Part shown: positions 437 through 64,000 of the stretch, piece after piece
How the letters are laid out: each line of letters begins with the position of its first letter
Numbering within the stretch: the stretch's first letter is position 1
Source of the DNA: Candidatus Magasanikiibacteriota bacterium
GTDB taxonomy: Bacteria > Patescibacteriota > Patescibacteriia > Magasanikbacterales > GWA2-37-8
Direction of reading: 5' to 3'
NCBI GenBank assembly: GCA_036744835.1
Contig: DAIOHD010000001.1
Location: 736,064 to 800,063, forward strand
DNA length: 64,000 nt
Program-made: the position numbers and the translations under genes
The notes under the pieces: generated by a model
Told to the model about the DNA's origin: nothing
Database searches by the model: none
Seen by the model: only the letters and a program-made list of their open reading frames with translations

Positions 437-546
437 GAATGTCATTGCGAGACCCGAAGGGACGCTAAGCGTTCCGAAGGGTCGTGGCAATCCCACTACT
501 TTCTGAACTTCATGAGATTGCTTCGTCATTACATTCCTCGCAATGA
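437..546. repeat. GTCATT-family element copy 1: 11-bp terminal inverted repeat GTCATTGCGAG ... CTCGCAATGAC enclosing ~88 nt with CCGAAGGG direct repeats
   Basis: Perfect IR gtcattgcgag (437-447) / ctcgcaatgac (536-546). Reverse complement aligns with the copy at 2163-2253 (gtcattgcGaggaatgTaatgacgaagcaat...ttcagaaagTagtgggatt). Confidence 0.5.
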
Positions 547-920
547 CAGTAGTGTTCGGTTTATTTTTTTTAAAAAAATAAACCAAAAAGACCCTCCCTT
601 TGGTTGCCTTTATAATAACTTAAAAAACTGTCTTTGGCAACTGGATAAATTTCGTTTAATTTATTTAAAATCCGCCTTTTCCACAAACACTTCAACCTAT
701 AGGTTGAAGTGTTTGTTTTGGCTAAAATAAAGGGATTATTCCCTCCTCTTCCTCAAGAGGAGGGCTAGGGTGGAATTTTTTAAAAAGACTCTCCCCTAAC
801 CTCCGCCTTCATCCAAGCTCCGTTAAAGCTACGCTGGACTACGGACGGACAAGCTCTCTCTTACATAAAAGAGGGGAATAAAAAACCCGCGCAGATATGC
901 ACGGGGTATGAAAGAACTTT

Positions 921-1451
921 TTAAGATATACGACGGAGAAGTAGACCAAGATGATTCCAAAAATCATTCTCCAGCGGCCTATAGTTTTTGGTCCATTCGT
1001 ATTCTTCCTTCCTCACATCATAATAACAATCGTCAATATAATAAAGCATTTCAGAATCATGGCCTTCGCTATTATTCCAGTTTGTAAAAATAAAATAATA
1101 ACGATAAAAACCACCAGGAATATCTCGTTGATGTTCCAAGATATAATCAGCATCATCAGCACCAAGACAAGCATTCAACGCCCTTGCTCTCTTGATAACT
1201 TCGTAACCAGTGATGGGCTTTTCTTTATCCTTTAGATATGGGATAACTTCATAGACCCTGTCGCCAATTTTCATTTCAACTGGCAAGGTTTCATACTTTT
1301 TTTCAGCAAAAGTAAGCTTTTTGCAAAACTGTAAAACCTTTTCTCTGTTTTCTCTCTCGATCAGTTTTTGGGAATTTTTTTCTCCCAAATCATTAAAAAA
1401 AACATCAACCTCTTGTTTAGATAATTTTACTTCATCCATCAGTCTCTCCAA
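921..1451 (-). CDS. hypothetical protein (no recognisable domain)
   Basis: 176-aa ORF from track; ordinary codon composition; no motif recognised. Confidence 0.4.
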   Translation of the reverse strand: MERLMDEVKLSKQEVDVFFNDLGEKNSQKLIERENREKVLQFCKKLTFAEKKYETLPVEMKIGDRVYEVIPYLKDKEKPITGYEVIKRARALNACLGADDADYILEHQRDIPGGFYRYYFIFTNWNNSEGHDSEMLYYIDDCYYDVRKEEYEWTKNYRPLENDFWNHLGLLLRRIS

Positions 1452-1642: not shown

Positions 1643-2029
1643 TTATTTTTTCATCTTCTTCGCCACTTTCTTCACTTTCTTTTGCGCTACAGCCATAGCT
1701 CTATCCACCGCATCTTTGGCAACATCGCCAAAATCCTCCACTTTATCATCCATAAAATCTCTAGCTTTTTTGGTGATGAAATTTTTCACCATTCCACCGG
1801 TAGTTTCTCTAGCCATCCCAAGCAAACTAACTATCCCCTCTACTTTATCTTGGATGGAATTTATAGTGTCCGTAATTCTCTGAAGACGTAAACGAAATTC
1901 TTCTACAATTGTATTTACATTTTTCAAAATCCTGGCGGCGTAATAAAACATGTAACAAATAAACGCCGTAACCCAGATGATACAAAACGAAATGACGATA
2001 TATAAAATATCTTTTGAATTTTCTAACAT
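1643..2029 (-). CDS. membrane-anchored coiled-coil protein, DUF948-like architecture (single N-terminal TM, helical body, Lys-rich tail)
   Basis: N-terminal hydrophobic segment ILYIVISFCIIWVTAFICYMFYY followed by helical region. Resembles DUF948 proteins only by architecture. Confidence 0.45.
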   Translation of the reverse strand: MLENSKDILYIVISFCIIWVTAFICYMFYYAARILKNVNTIVEEFRLRLQRITDTINSIQDKVEGIVSLLGMARETTGGMVKNFITKKARDFMDDKVEDFGDVAKDAVDRAMAVAQKKVKKVAKKMKK

Positions 2030-2107: not shown

Positions 2108-2300
2108 AACTCAAAACTCAAATGTCAAATCTCAAAACTACAATTTAAAACCTTAAAACCCTGTCATTGCAAGGAATGAAATGACGAAGCAATACCACAA
2201 AATTCAGAAAGCAGTGGGATTACTTCATCCGCTTTGCGGATTCGTAATGACACTTATCGTTAGTTTTGACATTTAAGGTTGTGGTTTTAACTTTTGAGAT
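2108..2300. repeat. MITE-like element copy A (composite): arms homologous to copies at 7847-7962 and 20487-20584, with a GTCATT-family element (2163-2253) nested in the core
   Basis: Left arm aactcaaaactcaaatgtcaaatctcaaaac matches copy B left arm. Right arm tagttttgacatttaagg..ttttgagatt is its inverted counterpart. Core replaced by gtcattgcaagg...cgtaatgacac. Confidence 0.55.
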
Positions 2301-7846: not shown

Positions 7847-7962
7847 AAACTCAAAACTCAAATGTCAAAAGTCAAAACTTTGGTGTCCCTGCGGGACAAT
7901 TTAATTAGACATCGCGAAGCGATACTTTAGTTTTGAGATTTGCATTTTGAGATTTGAGATTT
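7847..7962. repeat. MITE-like element copy B (~116 bp) with imperfect terminal inverted repeats and internal gtccc..gggac hairpin
   Basis: Aligns along its length with 20487-20584: ...aaaagtcaaaactt(t/c)ggtgtccc[hairpin]gcgaagcgatacNNtagttttgagatttgagattt. Confidence 0.6.
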
Positions 7963-7969
7963 AATTTTT

Positions 7970-30487: not shown

Positions 30488-30538
30488 AGAAAACACTAAT
30501 TTAAAAACACGAATTAACGCAAATAAAAAGTAGAGAAT

Positions 30539-30618
30539 GTCATTCCCGCATAAACAAAAATCCAGTGGCAATTACTAACTTTAACTTTCCTGGATCCCCG
30601 CCTTCGCGGGGATGACAC
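30539..30618. repeat. GTCATT-family element copy 3 (gtcattcccgc ... gcggggatgacac terminal inverted repeat)
   Basis: 11-bp IR; internal ccagtggcaatt resembles cagtgggatt of copies 1 and 2. Confidence 0.45.
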
Positions 30619-61509: not shown

Positions 61510-61600
61510 TATAGTTTTTATCCCCGTGAACTTTCATGGGGTTTACCCTGTGAACTCCTGCCTTCGGCAGGGTCACCCGCTAAGGCGGGTGAAAGTTCAC
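61510..61600. ncRNA. structured element upstream of rpsL: 15-bp helix tttaccctgtgaact/agttcacagggtaaa enclosing two short hairpins (cctgcc-ttc-ggcagg and cacccgc-taag-gcgggtg), preceded by ccccgtgaactttcatgggg
   Basis: Perfect 15-bp inverted repeat at 61532-61546 / 61584-61598. Shares the GGGGTTTACCC(t/c)GTGAA motif with 9568-9640 and 10275-10290. Confidence 0.4.
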
Positions 61601-61624
61601 AGGGTAAATAAAAAAAGCGCCACC

Positions 61625-61960: not shown

Positions 61961-62362
61961 AAAAATAATAAAAAATAAAACAAAGAACGAGTTACATTAC
62001 CTTATTTTGACGTTTTTGTCAATACCCTCATCCCCACCCCGCCCGGACCTTCTTTTTTTATAAAAAACAACTGGTAAGGCGAGCATTTGTAATCGCGAAG
62101 ATAAAATTTATAGACGAGCTGAGCGTTAAAAAATTCCACTTGTTTGAGCCCGAAGGGTGAGTTTGGAATTTTAGTGAAGCGACGTCATAAATTTACGTAG
62201 CGATTATAACAGCGAGCGATTTTCTTTCAGTCCACTTTCTTTTCTAAAAAGAAAGTGGACAAAACTGCGAAGCAAAATAAAAATATTTAGAAAGAAGGAT
62301 GTTGGAATAACAAGGGAGACAAAAACTCTCCCTTAATCCCTCTCTTGAGGAAGAGAGGGAAA

Positions 62363-63661
62363 CTACAGCAAAGGTACCTGTCTGAATTTATTTATCTCTT
62401 TCTCCCCCACCAACCCTATCTTCCCATACACCCCATCATATCCCGGAGACAGATCTACCCTGCCAGTACGCATATTATTGATAGCTAACCACAGCTCCGG
62501 ATATTTTGTATGTTGCAAAATTTCCTTTTCACCAGCTTTTGTCAAAATATAAAATTCCGAACCGATATTTTTGATCAGATGTTCGTATTCGGCTACAACT
62601 TTTTTGGATTTGGGGCCAACTTCCAAAATTTGCGATAAAATTTCCAGGAGCGGGACAATATATTTGTGCGGAATAAATTTTTCCCACGGAATTTCGCTCA
62701 CTTCCCTACTGGCCAAATCATCCACCCTGTGTTCCACCCCTATGACCAGAGGTTTTTTGCATTTCGGGCAAATATTTTTTTCTTTCTTGCTTTGTTTGGG
62801 AGATAAACAAACACCGCAAACCGCATGACCGTCGTATTGGTACATTCCTTCTTCTGGATAAAATTCAATTGTATATAAAAACTTTTTTCTATCTCCAGTA
62901 AAAATTATTTTTTTGATTTCATCATAAGTAATTTTGTTTTCGTCGGCAAAAGAAAAAACATTTGCTTCACGTCCTAGTTTATCCAAACTATGGGCATCAG
63001 AATTTGATACCAAAGTTATTTTATCTAGTTTTTCCAAGCGATGGTTCATGTTTGGGTCACTACTTAACCCTGTTTCTATCGCACAAATTTGGGGAGTGAG
63101 CTCTTCAAAACATTCTTCCAAACTGTCATAACCGGATTTGGAACCGAAAATAGCATACCAAGGAGTCCAGGCGTGCGCCGGAATCATAAAACATCTTTTG
63201 TCGGCTTTCAAAATCAGCTGTAAAAGTTTTTTTGCCGACATGCCGATAATCGGCCGGCCATCGGATCGGCGATTCAAACCCAGTTTATCAAAATCATCAT
63301 TGATTTTTTCCACCGCCTGCAAACTCGGCGCGAAAATGAGCAAGTGTACCCGACGGGTTTTATCTTTGTCTTTATAAATACAAGAAATTTCCGTACCAAG
63401 TATGAAGCGTGTCGGATTTTTCCCCTCCTTTTGTGAAGAGGAGGGCGAGGGTGGAGTCTTTAATTCAAAAAGTCCGCTATTACCAATTTCTTTCAATTCT
63501 TTTTGAATATGTTCAAACCATTTCGGGTGGGTAAAATCACCGGTGGCCACAATATCAATCCCTTTTTTGAGACACATGGCGGCAATTTTTGGCAATTCCA
63601 AATCCGGGCTACAAGCCCGTGAATATTTGGAGTGGATATGTAAATCAAGAATTTTTTCCAT
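62363..63661 (-). CDS. PHP-domain phosphoesterase with internal C4 zinc finger (endonuclease Q-like family)
   Basis: LDLHIHSKYSRACSP PHP N-terminus, ...GDFTHPKW..., later AHAWTPW, NSDAHS, and CGVC...CPKC finger. Contains low-complexity insert TPPSPSSSQKEG (see findings). Confidence 0.6.
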   Translation of the reverse strand: MEKILDLHIHSKYSRACSPDLELPKIAAMCLKKGIDIVATGDFTHPKWFEHIQKELKEIGNSGLFELKTPPSPSSSQKEGKNPTRFILGTEISCIYKDKDKTRRVHLLIFAPSLQAVEKINDDFDKLGLNRRSDGRPIIGMSAKKLLQLILKADKRCFMIPAHAWTPWYAIFGSKSGYDSLEECFEELTPQICAIETGLSSDPNMNHRLEKLDKITLVSNSDAHSLDKLGREANVFSFADENKITYDEIKKIIFTGDRKKFLYTIEFYPEEGMYQYDGHAVCGVCLSPKQSKKEKNICPKCKKPLVIGVEHRVDDLASREVSEIPWEKFIPHKYIVPLLEILSQILEVGPKSKKVVAEYEHLIKNIGSEFYILTKAGEKEILQHTKYPELWLAINNMRTGRVDLSPGYDGVYGKIGLVGEKEINKFRQVPLL

Positions 63662-64000
63662 AATCAAAATCATTGTATTCCAACACCATTTCCTTATCCC
63701 CAGTCGCTGTTTTGAAAGTCAGTTTATCTGCAAATAATGCAATGCTTTTATCAGAAAGTGGTTTTTCAGCTCCATATTTAATATCACCAATCAATGGATG
63801 GCCAAGATGTGCAAATTGCACACGGATTTGATGATGGCGTCCGGTTTTGAGATTTATTTTTACCAAAGTATTTCCTTTTATTTCTTTTACCACTTCATAA
63901 TCCAATTCCGCGCGTTGACTGCCAGCAACTTCTCTATCAAAAATTTCCGCTTTATTATTTTTTTCATTATGTTTGAGAAAATTTATCAGCGTGCCTTTTT
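63645..64000 (-). CDS. RluA-family pseudouridine synthase, C-terminal part (gene continues beyond window end)
   Basis: TGRHHQIRVQFAHLGHPLIGDIKYG motif; ORF open to window edge. Confidence 0.75.
   Translation of the reverse strand, partial: KGTLINFLKHNEKNNKAEIFDREVAGSQRAELDYEVVKEIKGNTLVKINLKTGRHHQIRVQFAHLGHPLIGDIKYGAEKPLSDKSIALFADKLTFKTATGDKEMVLEYNDFDYGKNS

What the first reader, a model, noticed from the sequence alone, without database searches (positions are those of the whole stretch)
63415..63460. Repeat-like low-complexity insert inside the EndoQ-like PHP gene, matching intergenic stem-loops
The sequence cctccttttgtgaagaggagggcgagggtgg lies in the coding region of the PHP/Zn-finger gene, where it encodes ...TPPSPSSSQKEG.... 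It closely resembles the intergenic stem-loop cctcctcttcctcaagaggagggctagggtgg at 748-779, and partly ccctctcttgaggaagagaggg at 62345-62366, which sits next to an aaaactctcccttaa word also found at ~785-800. The coding copy may therefore be an in-frame mini-insertion of a small palindromic repeat into a gene, which the protein tolerates as a linker.
Basis: seen in the sequence. Interest (0 to 1): 0.5.

Follow-up and report, generated by a model that had tools for sequence, protein, structure and literature searches.

The report
Triplex-type DNA repeat inside EndoQ gene
A 36-base copy of a small dispersed DNA repeat of the already described BoxC / "intrastrand triplex motif" kind sits in frame inside a DNA-repair gene of a Patescibacteria genome, where it adds a 10-residue surface loop; the kind of element is known, but I found no description of it inside genes or in this phylum.

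Summary
Window 63423-63458 is one of three copies (with 741-777 and 62324-62360) of a 36-37 nt unit. None occurs in 100 shuffles.

Close EndoQ orthologues (80-93% identical) lack exactly 30 nt here. The solved archaeal EndoQ has a gap at this point, and the modelled segment is a low-confidence loop between two beta strands.

The unit is more than a palindrome. It has a pyrimidine arm, a loop, a purine arm, a 3-nt linker and a tail. The tail is the mirror image of the purine arm: G faces G, and A or T faces A. This is the design of a class II purine-motif intrastrand triplex, described as BoxC / PIT / TMECO (Holder 2015). The "aaaactctcccttaa" word is that tail on the opposite strand.

Related units occur across many phyla, and the mirror rule holds for about 25 different arm sequences.

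New here:
- an AT-richer subfamily in Patescibacteria;
- in-frame copies in genes (EndoQ, and one ComEC-like gene);
- an EndoQ loop carrying insertions in 55 of 120 homologues;
- stems of the coding copy conserved far above synonymous sites.

The copying mechanism and any function remain unknown. Known kind, new member; moderate interest.

The parts
63423..63458 (+). Copy A, the finding. Parts: Y-arm CCCTCCTTTT 63423-63432, loop GTG 63433-63435, R-arm AAGAGGAGGG 63436-63445, linker CGA 63446-63448, mirror tail GGGTGGAGT(C) 63449-63458. The G-rich strand is antisense to EndoQ; on the gene strand the unit encodes (K)TPPSPSSSQKEG.
   Evidence: class II scan: 1 Watson-Crick mismatch, 0-1 tail mismatch; 30-nt indel; 36 nt replace TTCATT; hairpin folds and the tail stays free.
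741..777 (+). Copy B, intergenic. Parts: Y-arm CCCTCCTCTT 741-750, loop CCTC 751-754, R-arm AAGAGGAGGG 755-764, linker CTA 765-767, tail GGGTGGAATT 768-777 (9 of 10 positions obey the mirror rule).
   Evidence: Orthologous copies in metagenome contigs L150, L154, L183 and L243.
62324..62360 (-). Copy C, starting 2 nt after the EndoQ stop codon on the gene's strand. Parts, read on the minus strand: TCCCTCTCTT / CCTC / AAGAGAGGGA / TTA / AGGGAGAGTT. Watson-Crick pairing is 10 of 10 and the mirror rule is met at 10 of 10.
   Evidence: No terminator-like T-run is predicted.
788..876 (-). Copy D, a degenerate or composite relative. Read on the minus strand: hairpin CCCCTCTTTT-atgt-AAGAGAGAG, then a roughly 50-nt GC-rich nested segment (about 803-853), then AGG-TTA-GGGGAGAGTC. 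It lies tail-to-tail with copy B and does not pass the triplet-rule scan.
   Evidence: homologous to L007:1838-1915; not detected.
62363..63673 (-). Host gene: endonuclease Q family protein (436-aa ORF; public annotations start at MEKIL, giving 432 aa). The insert is residues 73-84 of the 436-aa reading.
   Evidence: PF27218; sources name it 'endonuclease Q family protein'; PfuEndoQ 5ZB8, E=3e-41; model, mean pLDDT 86.

Best explanation
Window 63423-63458 is an in-frame copy of a small dispersed DNA repeat of the BoxC / PIT / 'TM' kind.

Anatomy. One strand carries a 10-nt pyrimidine arm, a 3-nt loop and the complementary 10-nt purine arm, which form a Watson-Crick hairpin. A 3-nt linker follows, then a 9-10 nt tail that is the mirror image of the purine arm, with G opposite G and A or T opposite A.

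Predicted structure. As single-stranded DNA the tail can fold back into the major groove, antiparallel to the purine arm, forming G*G-C, A*A-T and T*A-T reverse-Hoogsteen triplets. This is a class II purine-motif intrastrand triplex.

How it sits in the gene. The G-rich strand is antisense to EndoQ. The 36-nt unit replaced 6 nt (the Asn-Glu codons) of a beta-turn. The net gain is 10 residues, which the protein carries as a disordered surface loop.

Shown here: the indel, the family, the mirror rule, the position in a loop, and DNA-level conservation of the stems.

Inferred:
- The peptide has no role of its own.
- The element is selfish or structural DNA that is copied or converted between T-rich flanks by host replication or repair (template switching), or by an unidentified trans-acting enzyme.
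- Transient triplex formation on single-stranded DNA stalls polymerases and makes the site hypervariable.
For: - Indel: close orthologues lack exactly 30 nt. Archaeal EndoQ has a gap there. The model shows a loop with low pLDDT.
- Family in the window: three units against 0 in 100 shuffles.
- Family elsewhere: 36 complete units in at least 27 flank contexts among the first 122 metagenome matches.
- Mirror rule, hairpins not selected by my pattern: 77 of 380 meet it at 8 of 8 positions, against 13.5 after permuting tails.
- Mirror rule, fixed 3-nt linker: 69 of 299 have at most 1 violation over the whole arm, against 1-7 at other linker lengths. Arm-A faces A/T at 175 of 200 positions, against 63 expected and a maximum of 89 in 1000 permutations.
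- The rule fits different alleles at the same EndoQ site. The L007 allele has arm AAGGAGAGGA and tail AGGTGAGGTA (10 of 10). P0015 scores 10 of 10 and P0019 7 of 7.
- DNA-level constraint: in four lineages with the window-type allele the stems are 93-100% identical. The rest of the gene is 76-83% identical, third codon positions 57-66%, and the loops 0-67%.
- Literature: Holder et al. 2015 (PMC4666352) define this class and its TTA linker. They showed by CD and NMR that the E. coli version forms a stable triplex as a single strand.
Against: - No triplex was detected in double-stranded DNA or by in vivo DMS footprinting in E. coli (PMC4666352).
- The AT-richer window units have 4 A-T triplets in 10 and have never been tested.
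- Copy A has one T.G mismatch in the hairpin, and its tenth tail base belongs to the flank.
- There is no target-site duplication and no associated transposase. The event is a 36-for-6 nt replacement, so 'insertion' is a description and not a mechanism.
- The mixed phylogenetic pattern of alleles could come from recombination among strains and need not mean repeated insertion.
- High stem conservation could reflect conversion from other copies and need not mean selection.
- Copy D and the L008 allele are degenerate, so the structure is not always kept.
- My loci were collected with patterns derived from the window, so the family census is biased.
Confidence: 0.85

Rival explanations
1. The functional form is an RNA hairpin, REP-like: a 3'-end mRNA stabiliser or terminator. 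The tail would be incidental, and the coding copy a stray member.
For: - Copies C and D lie just 3' of genes, in the orientation of those genes.
- The hairpins are stable.
Against: - No T-run follows the stems, and no terminator is predicted at B, C or A. The gene upstream of D has its own terminator at 905-886.
- PIT elements showed no promoter or terminator activity in E. coli (cited in PMC4666352).
- A plain hairpin model does not explain a tail that co-varies with the purine arm as a mirror repeat at a fixed 3-nt distance.
- Purine-motif triplexes do not form in RNA (cited in PMC4666352).
- In the gene, the G-rich strand is antisense.
Confidence: 0.12
2. The units are miniature transposons, REP- or MITE-like, moved by a trans-acting single-strand DNA transposase (RAYT or IS200/IS605-like). 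The enzyme would recognise the folded hairpin plus tail and insert next to TT. This concerns the mode of spread and is compatible with the triplex anatomy.
For: - Copies are dispersed in many flank contexts, and the 5' flank nearly always ends in TT just before the pyrimidine arm.
- Inverted doublets and tandem arrays resemble REPINs and BIMEs.
- The motif is present in 91 viral-contig stretches, some with 3-6 copies.
- Different family members occupy the same EndoQ loop in distant lineages.
Against: - No GTAG or CGTC tag is present; that tag defines the RAYT-associated REP superfamilies (PMC3733652).
- There is no target-site duplication. The event replaced 6 nt.
- No transposase was looked for or seen.
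- Holder et al. found no link to transposons, phages or plasmids in E. coli.
- Genomes of about 0.9 Mb are unlikely to keep such an enzyme, though this was not tested.
Confidence: 0.2
3. The relevant structure is a G-quadruplex formed by the G-runs of the purine arm plus the tail, and not a triplex.
For: The cross-phylum consensus GGGGAGGG-TTA-GGGTGGGG has four G-runs. Holder et al. note that a quadruplex is possible in principle.
Against: - A quadruplex does not need the pyrimidine arm, or A/T opposite each arm-A. Both are strongly kept.
- Variants with only two long G-runs (AAGGGGGGA-tta-AGGGGGGTA) or only GG runs (AAAGGAGGA-ttg-AGGAGGTTT) still obey the mirror rule.
- NMR of the E. coli motif gave 18 imino signals, which fits a triplex and not a quadruplex.
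Confidence: 0.04
4. The resemblance is chance similarity of GA/CT-rich low-complexity sequence, or the segment is an ordinary lineage-specific Pro/Ser linker shaped by protein-level selection.
For: The peptide is Pro/Ser/Gly-rich, as many linkers are, and the DNA is purine/pyrimidine-biased.
Against: - Shuffles give 0 expected matches.
- The indel is a clean 30 nt.
- Alleles at the site encode unrelated peptides (TPPSPSSSQKEG, TSPQSSPYKGEE, LPPPLTPPPAGGG, NPTPCPSPNRGG), yet all keep the three-part DNA design.
- Third codon positions inside the stems are conserved far above those of the rest of the gene.
Confidence: 0.02

Closest known systems
BoxC / PIT elements / TMECO: class II purine-motif intrastrand triplex motifs (Bachellier 1990s and Hoyne & Maher 2000, as cited in Holder et al. 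2015, NAR 43:10126, PMC4666352)
   Same: - Same order of parts on one strand: pyrimidine arm, loop of 3-6 nt, purine arm, 3-nt second loop (TTA is the commonest), then a G/T/A third stem.
- Same triplet rule.
- Stems of 9-10 nt.
- Frequent inverted pairs.
- Patchy distribution among close relatives, and association with locally variable DNA.
- Present in Cyanobacteria and Proteobacteria, as in my genome scan.
   Different: - The window units do not match the TMECO pattern CCCTCNCCC..GGGNGAGGG..GGGNGAGGG. They are AT-richer (CCCTCCTCTT / AAGAGGAGGG / GGGTGGAGT) and sit in a 35% GC Patescibacteria genome.
- TMECO is 'always intergenic' in E. coli MG1655, whereas here one copy is in frame inside a gene.
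- TMECO arms are mirror-symmetric, so they cannot tell a mirror tail from a direct repeat. The asymmetric arms found here can, and they support the mirror reading.
Rickettsia palindromic elements (RPE) and intragenic REPs (Ogata et al. 2000, from my own knowledge; Di Nocera et al. 2013, PMC3733652)
   Same: - Small palindromic repeats inserted in frame in genes that stay functional, tolerated in loops or linkers.
- Di Nocera et al. report that many intragenic REPs lie in replication and repair genes, and that some sit at the same site in orthologous genes. EndoQ is a repair nuclease.
   Different: - RPEs are about 100-150 bp.
- REPs carry a GTAG or CGTC tag and, for GTAG, are linked to RAYT transposases.
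- The unit here is 36 nt, has no such tag, and has a mirror tail.
Small dispersed repeats (SDR) of cyanobacteria (Elhai et al. 2008, Genome Res; from my own knowledge, not read here)
   Same: Very small (about 20-30 nt) nested palindromic repeats that appear mobile and can sit inside genes and inside one another.
   Different: I did not compare sequences. As I recall them, SDRs are not described as triplex motifs.
REP / BIME / REPIN
   Same: Units of 20-40 nt with a hairpin, organised as inverted doublets and clusters, mostly intergenic.
   Different: The defining GTAG/CGTC head is absent, and no RAYT was identified.

Membership tests
Class II intrastrand purine-motif triplex motif (ITxF definition, Holder 2015) | Three stems on one strand in the order 5' pyrimidine-rich, purine-rich, reverse-Hoogsteen 3' | tested here: met
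   Copies A, B and C all have the order Y-arm, R-arm, G/T/A tail. The definition was read.
Class II intrastrand purine-motif triplex motif (ITxF definition, Holder 2015) | Stem of 6-15 nt with at most one mismatched triplet (allowed when the stem is 7 nt or longer), and triplets limited to G*G-C, A*A-T and T*A-T | tested here: met
   C: 10 of 10 with no mismatch. B: 9-10 nt with one tail mismatch. A: a 9-nt stem (63423-63457) with one T.G mismatch and a perfect tail.
Class II intrastrand purine-motif triplex motif (ITxF definition, Holder 2015) | Both loops 1-6 nt long | tested here: met
   Loop 1 is 3-6 nt and loop 2 is 3-5 nt.
Class II intrastrand purine-motif triplex motif (ITxF definition, Holder 2015) | The single strand actually folds into a triplex (CD, NMR) | not testable with these tools
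   Shown only for the GC-rich E. coli TMECO. ViennaRNA models the hairpin only.
TMECO / BoxC in the strict sense | Sequence pattern CCCTCNCCC N3-6 GGGNGAGGG N3 GGGNGAGGG | tested here: not met
   The window units read CCCTCCTCTT..AAGAGGAGGG..GGGTGGAAT and CCCTCTCTT..AAGAGAGGG..GGGAGAGTT. They are a sister subfamily and not TMECO itself.
REP (GTAG/CGTC superfamilies, RAYT-associated) | GTAG or CGTC tetranucleotide at one end of the palindrome | tested here: not met
   The flanks are ..ATT|CCCTCC and GGGTGGAGT|CTT. No GTAG or CGTC is adjacent on either strand. The definition is from PMC3733652.
REP (GTAG/CGTC superfamilies, RAYT-associated) | A RAYT (HUH tyrosine transposase) gene in the genome | not tested
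   Only 64 kb of the genome was available, and its ORFs were not screened against transposase profiles.
MITE | Terminal inverted repeats of 15-30 bp plus a target-site duplication | tested here: not met
   The unit is one hairpin plus a tail. Comparing filled and empty alleles shows 6 nt replaced and no duplication.
Intrinsic terminator | GC-rich stem followed within 0-2 nt by a T-run | tested here: not met
   The scans report no terminator at A, B or C. The tail separates the stem from any T-run.
Rfam RNA families | A match at the gathering threshold | tested here: not met
   Only three tRNAs match in the whole window.

The most novel reading that the evidence does not exclude
The whole three-stranded design, and not just the hairpin, is what is recognised or selected in these elements, even inside a coding region.

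Grounds:
- Alleles at the same EndoQ codons swap between family members whose base triples co-vary completely. At three positions the window allele has C-G*G where the L007 allele has T-A*A, or the reverse.
- The stems evolve several-fold more slowly than synonymous sites of the host gene.
- The same loop has been hit again and again in Patescibacteria.

This would mean that an unidentified, currently active copy, conversion or insertion process reads an intrastrand DNA triplex, or that selection maintains such a structure in reduced genomes. It would give a natural system for testing whether DNA triplexes form and matter in vivo.
Probability: 0.25. Interest if true: 0.7.

Novelty: new member of a known kind. 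Interest (0 to 1): 0.45.

Why it matters
Intrastrand triplex motifs (BoxC/PIT/TM) have been known for decades, but no function or way of spreading has been established for them. The best-studied case, E. coli, has only intergenic copies with mirror-symmetric arms.

The copies found here help in four ways:
- **Asymmetric arms.** They separate a mirror tail from a direct repeat, and so support the triplex design by covariation.
- **New host.** They extend the class to Patescibacteria, which have very small genomes.
- **Coding copies.** The element can live in frame inside genes (EndoQ, and a ComEC-like gene), where the host gene's synonymous rate gives an internal yardstick for DNA-level constraint.
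- **A recurrent landing site.** One protein loop acts as a repeated landing site for several families of small repeats. Such a site is a practical place to look for insertion polymorphism in metagenomic reads and to work out the mechanism.

For genome annotation, the finding also explains short Pro-rich/Gly-rich inserts in Patescibacteria proteins, and spurious small ORFs.

Tried and rejected
- **Rfam.** A search of the whole window at gathering threshold found only three tRNAs.
- **Literature search by literal sequence.** Searching for GGAGGGTTAGGGTGG and its complement found nothing relevant. The class was found only after I derived the mirror rule and searched for triplex terms.
- **Terminator idea.** Rejected, because no T-run follows the stems and none is predicted.
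- **Alternative Watson-Crick pairing of the tail with the pyrimidine arm.** Rejected, because the two are related in parallel and not antiparallel orientation.
- **Direct-repeat model of the tail.** Only 40 elements reach 8 of 8 positions, against 181 for the mirror model.
- **G-quadruplex.** Rejected as the main reading (see rivals).
- **Single ancestral insertion with vertical descent.** Not supported, because the empty allele and three filled allele types are intermixed on the EndoQ tree.
- **Deletion of the window allele by slippage between its AAAG repeats.** This would give ELKEGKN and not the observed ELKNEKN, so the empty alleles are not recent deletions of it (reasoning).
- **Fitting copy D and L007:1838-1915 to the triplet rule.** They do not fit. 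I left them as degenerate or composite units.
- **Getting the rest of the 906-kb genome.** The exact-protein look-up returned only a 2.1-kb contig, so no genome-wide census of this organism was possible.
- **More in-frame copies among the metagenome hits.** A first, over-strict regular expression found only an element upstream of a start codon. The architecture-based scan then found three, one of them in a ComEC-like gene.
Full report
**1. The observation**

The quoted sequence lies at 63424-63455 on the + strand. It sits inside a minus-strand ORF, 62363..63673 (436 aa). The relatives of this ORF are annotated as endonuclease Q family proteins of Patescibacteria / Candidatus Magasanikbacteria. 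The closest solved structure is Pyrococcus furiosus EndoQ, 5ZB8 (E = 3e-41).

On the gene strand the segment encodes TPPSPSSSQKEG. The window has about 35% G+C.

The intergenic relative at 741-777 and the third copy at 62324-62360 (minus strand, starting 2 nt after the EndoQ stop codon) are real.

The similarity is far above chance:
- The 19-mer AAGAGGAGGGCKAGGGTGG occurs twice, with 0.00 expected.
- The repeat finder links all three sites (D11 and I5).
- A scan for the complete three-part architecture finds exactly these three sites, and none in 100 dinucleotide-preserving shuffles.
- Rfam has nothing here.

**2. It is an insertion relative to close orthologues**

In an alignment of 29 homologues, four close ones read ELKN-EKNP and lack 10 residues: P0004, P0007, P0012 and P0014, which are 80-93% identical. 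The DNA of eight orthologous loci shows a clean 30-nt difference.

Read on the element's strand:
- The empty allele is GTCGGATTTTT-TTCATT-CTTCAATTC.
- The window allele is GTCGGATTTTT-[36 nt]-CTTTAATTC.

So a 36-nt unit replaces 6 nt, the Asn-Glu codons. There is no target-site duplication.

PfuEndoQ has a gap exactly at this place. An AlphaFold model (mean pLDDT 86) puts residues 72-88 in a coil between strands 69-71 and 89-102. pLDDT there is 66-69, falling below 50 at 82-84. The protein therefore carries the insert as an extended beta-turn.

**3. Anatomy: a hairpin plus a mirror tail**

| Copy | Pyrimidine arm | Loop | Purine arm | Linker | Tail |
|---|---|---|---|---|---|
| A | CCCTCCTTTT | GTG | AAGAGGAGGG | CGA | GGGTGGAGT |
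| B | CCCTCCTCTT | CCTC | AAGAGGAGGG | CTA | GGGTGGAATT |
| C | TCCCTCTCTT | CCTC | AAGAGAGGGA | TTA | AGGGAGAGTT |

Read away from the linker, the tail repeats the purine arm in mirror order. G stands opposite G, and A or T opposite A. The scores are C 10 of 10, B 9 of 10, and A 9 of 9. The tenth tail base of A belongs to the flank.

The tail cannot pair with the pyrimidine arm in the Watson-Crick sense, because the two are related in parallel orientation. Folding programs leave the tail single-stranded.

The similar word at about 785-800 is the tail of a fourth copy, D (788-876, minus strand). D is degenerate and is interrupted by a GC-rich segment. D does not pass the triplet rule.

**4. 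The family is very widespread, and the mirror rule is general**

Hits came from Cyanobacteria, all classes of Proteobacteria, Chloroflexi, Nitrospirae, Bacteroidetes, Planctomycetes, Armatimonadota, Gastranaerophilales and Patescibacteria, in hosts of 31-72% G+C.

Every hit is a true hairpin. The consensus is ..TT CCCTCCCC(C)-loop-(G)GGGGAGGG-TTA/CTA/TCA-GGGTGGGG(T). Units often occur as inverted doublets in both arrangements.

My pattern fixed part of the arm and tail, so I tested the rule on hairpins it had not selected:
- Among 380 such pyrimidine/purine hairpin strands, 77 obey the rule at 8 of 8 positions, against 13.5 after permuting tails.
- With the linker fixed at 3 nt and no optimisation, 69 of 299 have at most one violation over the whole arm. 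At linker lengths 1, 2, 4, 5 or 6 the count is 1-7.
- Arm-A faces A or T at 175 of 200 positions, against 63 expected and a maximum of 89 in 1000 permutations.
- A direct-repeat model does much worse.

The rule holds for about 25 different arm sequences. Examples are GGGGGAAGG-tca-GGATGGGGG, AAGGGGGGA-tta-AGGGGGGTA, AAAGAGGGG-tcg-GGGGAGATT and GAGGAGGGG-ttg-GGGGTGGTG.

**5. What it is**

This is the design of a purine-motif triple helix folded from one strand, with G*G-C, A*A-T and T*A-T reverse-Hoogsteen triplets.

The literature search then showed that the class is already described. It was BoxC in E. coli in the 1990s, then 'potential intrastrand triplex' (PIT) elements (Hoyne and Maher 2000), and then TM/TMECO in Holder et al. 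2015 (PMC4666352).

Holder et al. report the following:
- They define class II as pyrimidine stem, purine stem, reverse-Hoogsteen stem.
- They give the E. coli pattern CCCTCNCCC N3-6 GGGNGAGGG N3 GGGNGAGGG, with TTA or CCG as the second loop.
- They show by CD and NMR that the single strand forms a very stable triplex.
- They find no triplex in duplex DNA or by in vivo DMS footprinting.
- They cite earlier work that found no promoter or terminator activity for these elements.
- They find no link to mobile elements.
- They find the motif 'always intergenic' in MG1655.
- They associate it with locally variable DNA.

The window units meet the class II definition but not the TMECO sequence pattern. 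They are an AT-richer sister subfamily.

Of the first 122 matches, 36 are complete units. They come almost only from low-GC contigs (median 0.37), in at least 27 different flank contexts. The linkers are TTA, CTA, ATA or CGA, and the tail continues GTC or GTT. Some units lie in tandem arrays.

**6. The EndoQ site is a hot spot**

Four allele types occur at the same codons among close relatives:
- empty;
- the window type;
- a second triplex unit, TCCTCTCCTT-TAT-AAGGAGAGGA-CTG-AGGTGAGGTA in L007 (perfect 10 of 10 in both the hairpin and the mirror tail);
- an unrelated GC-rich palindrome (P0005).

Every filled allele is 30 nt longer than the empty one. On a neighbour-joining tree of the gene with the insert masked, the four types are intermixed. 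Vertical descent from one event does not explain this.

The window allele and the L007 allele differ by complete base-triple exchanges at three positions (C-G*G versus T-A*A, or the reverse).

More distant homologues carry independent members in the same loop and the same orientation:
- P0015: AGGGGAGGGG-caa-GGGGTGGGGT, 10 of 10.
- P0019: GGAGGGG-tta-GGGGAGG, 7 of 7.

Among the 120 best homologues, 62 have the basal loop length, 3 are within one residue of it, and 55 carry insertions of 3 to 47 residues. Many of these read like translated small repeats of several families.

**7. DNA-level conservation inside the gene**

Four lineages carry the window-type allele: the window, L252, L253 and L254.

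| Region | Pairwise identity |
|---|---|
| 29 stem positions | 93-100% |
| Rest of the gene | 76-83% |
| Third codon positions of the rest of the gene | 57-66% |
| 6 loop positions | 0-67% |

One of the two stem changes is T to A in the tail, opposite an arm-A. The triplet rule allows this change. The other restores a Watson-Crick pair.

Either the stems are constrained as DNA, or they are kept uniform by conversion from other copies. Protein-level selection does not explain it, because other alleles encode unrelated peptides. In L008 the purine arm has decayed, so the structure is not always maintained.

**8. Other genes**

In 327 kb of low-GC metagenome contigs the architecture scan finds 81 units. 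This sample is biased, because each contig was fetched for containing one. Three units lie well inside ORFs. One of these is a ComEC-like gene (Pfam Competence, E = 1.6e-54), with PPPPNPSLGRRG between predicted membrane segments.

In-frame copies are therefore rare but not unique to EndoQ.

Intragenic REPs and Rickettsia RPEs are the known parallel. Di Nocera et al. 2013 note that many intragenic REPs lie in replication and repair genes.

**9. How it most likely works**

Shown:
- the unit is a dispersed repeat with the class II triplex design;
- copy A is a derived, in-frame, tolerated copy in a surface loop;
- the site is hypervariable.

Established for the E. coli relative only: the single strand folds into a triplex in vitro.

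Inferred:
- The structure forms transiently on single-stranded DNA during replication or repair, stalls polymerases, and promotes template switching or conversion between T-rich flanks. Copy B and copy A share GGATT(A/T)TT on the left and T-rich/TTTAA sequence on the right.
- Alternatively, an unidentified enzyme moves the units next to TT.

I cannot decide between these. The motif also occurs in 91 viral-contig stretches, some with several copies. That offers a possible route between hosts, but those contigs may include host DNA.

**10. Verdict**

The element belongs to a known kind, and in-frame small repeats are a known phenomenon. What is new:
- this subfamily and its host phylum;
- the intragenic context for this class;
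- the mirror-versus-direct covariation test;
- the recurrent landing site.

Interest is moderate.

Noticed in passing
EndoQ loop, window 63400-63470 (protein residues about 70-90); proteins P0001-P0120: In 55 of the 120 best EndoQ homologues this one loop carries insertions of 3-47 residues. Many read like translated small repeats of at least four families. These are the triplex type (P..P..P followed by a G-rich stretch), a 'DSS..FGMT / LRGND' type, a 'PGFAKVTPGE' GC-rich palindrome, and an AT-rich 'SQFxISNFKFQ' type. The loop acts as a general landing pad or tolerated site.
   Followed up: partly
L145:530-563 (activated-sludge metagenome contig, GC 0.35): A class II triplex unit lies in frame inside a ComEC-like gene (Pfam Competence, E=1.6e-54) and encodes PPPPNPSLGRRG. 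This is a second gene with such an insert.
   Followed up: partly
window about 803-853 (nested in copy D); L007:1862-1892; L130 (EndoQ of P0005), codons for KQPGFAKVTPGE: A second small GC-rich repeat family (..CGTCCGTAGC..TTTGGCGAAGGCGG.. / CCCGGCTTCGCCAAGGTTACGCCGGG) is nested inside a triplex-type unit. In another lineage it sits in frame at the same EndoQ site.
   Followed up: partly
window 62204-62336 versus L007:1905-2041: The roughly 130 nt downstream of copy C, including the perfect hairpin GTCCACTTTCTTTTTAGAAAAGAAAGTGGAC, are 87% identical to a segment that in a relative lies 5 kb upstream of EndoQ, after a methyltransferase gene. The stretch immediately 3' of EndoQ differs in every relative examined.
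   Followed up: partly
window 489-562 and 2148-2221; L007:5078-5152: A 74-nt inverted repeat (81% complementary) brackets a 1.6-kb segment with two minus-strand ORFs (921..1451 and 1643..2029). The same 75-nt sequence occurs once in a relative (93% identical). It may be a mobile or invertible segment.
   Followed up: no
window 61542-61608: A 67-nt sequence upstream of the ribosomal protein S12 gene matches a relative in both orientations (98.5% identical), so it is a long palindrome.
   Followed up: no
window 2108-2160, 7848-7879, 7926-7969: An AT-rich repeat, AACTCAAAACTCAAATGTCAAATCTCAAAACT, occurs in direct and inverted copies. Its translation resembles the 'SQ..KFQ' inserts seen in some EndoQ homologues.
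   Followed up: no
window 30538-30617; L004:13103-13176; L007:8167-8234: A further roughly 75-nt sequence is shared at about 80% identity with relatives, where it lies at other positions, next to the S7/EF-G genes and downstream of EndoQ.
   Followed up: no
L256, L310, L260, L296 (IMG/VR contigs): Some viral contigs carry 3-6 copies of the GC-rich triplex motif. Holder et al. saw no link to phages in E. coli. These contigs may include host DNA.
   Followed up: no
L145:1-120, L155, L229: Triplex units of the window subfamily occur as head-to-tail tandem arrays with a period of about 43 nt (..GGGTGGAGTCTGTATCCCCTCCTCTTTCTTAAGAGGAGGG..).
   Followed up: no
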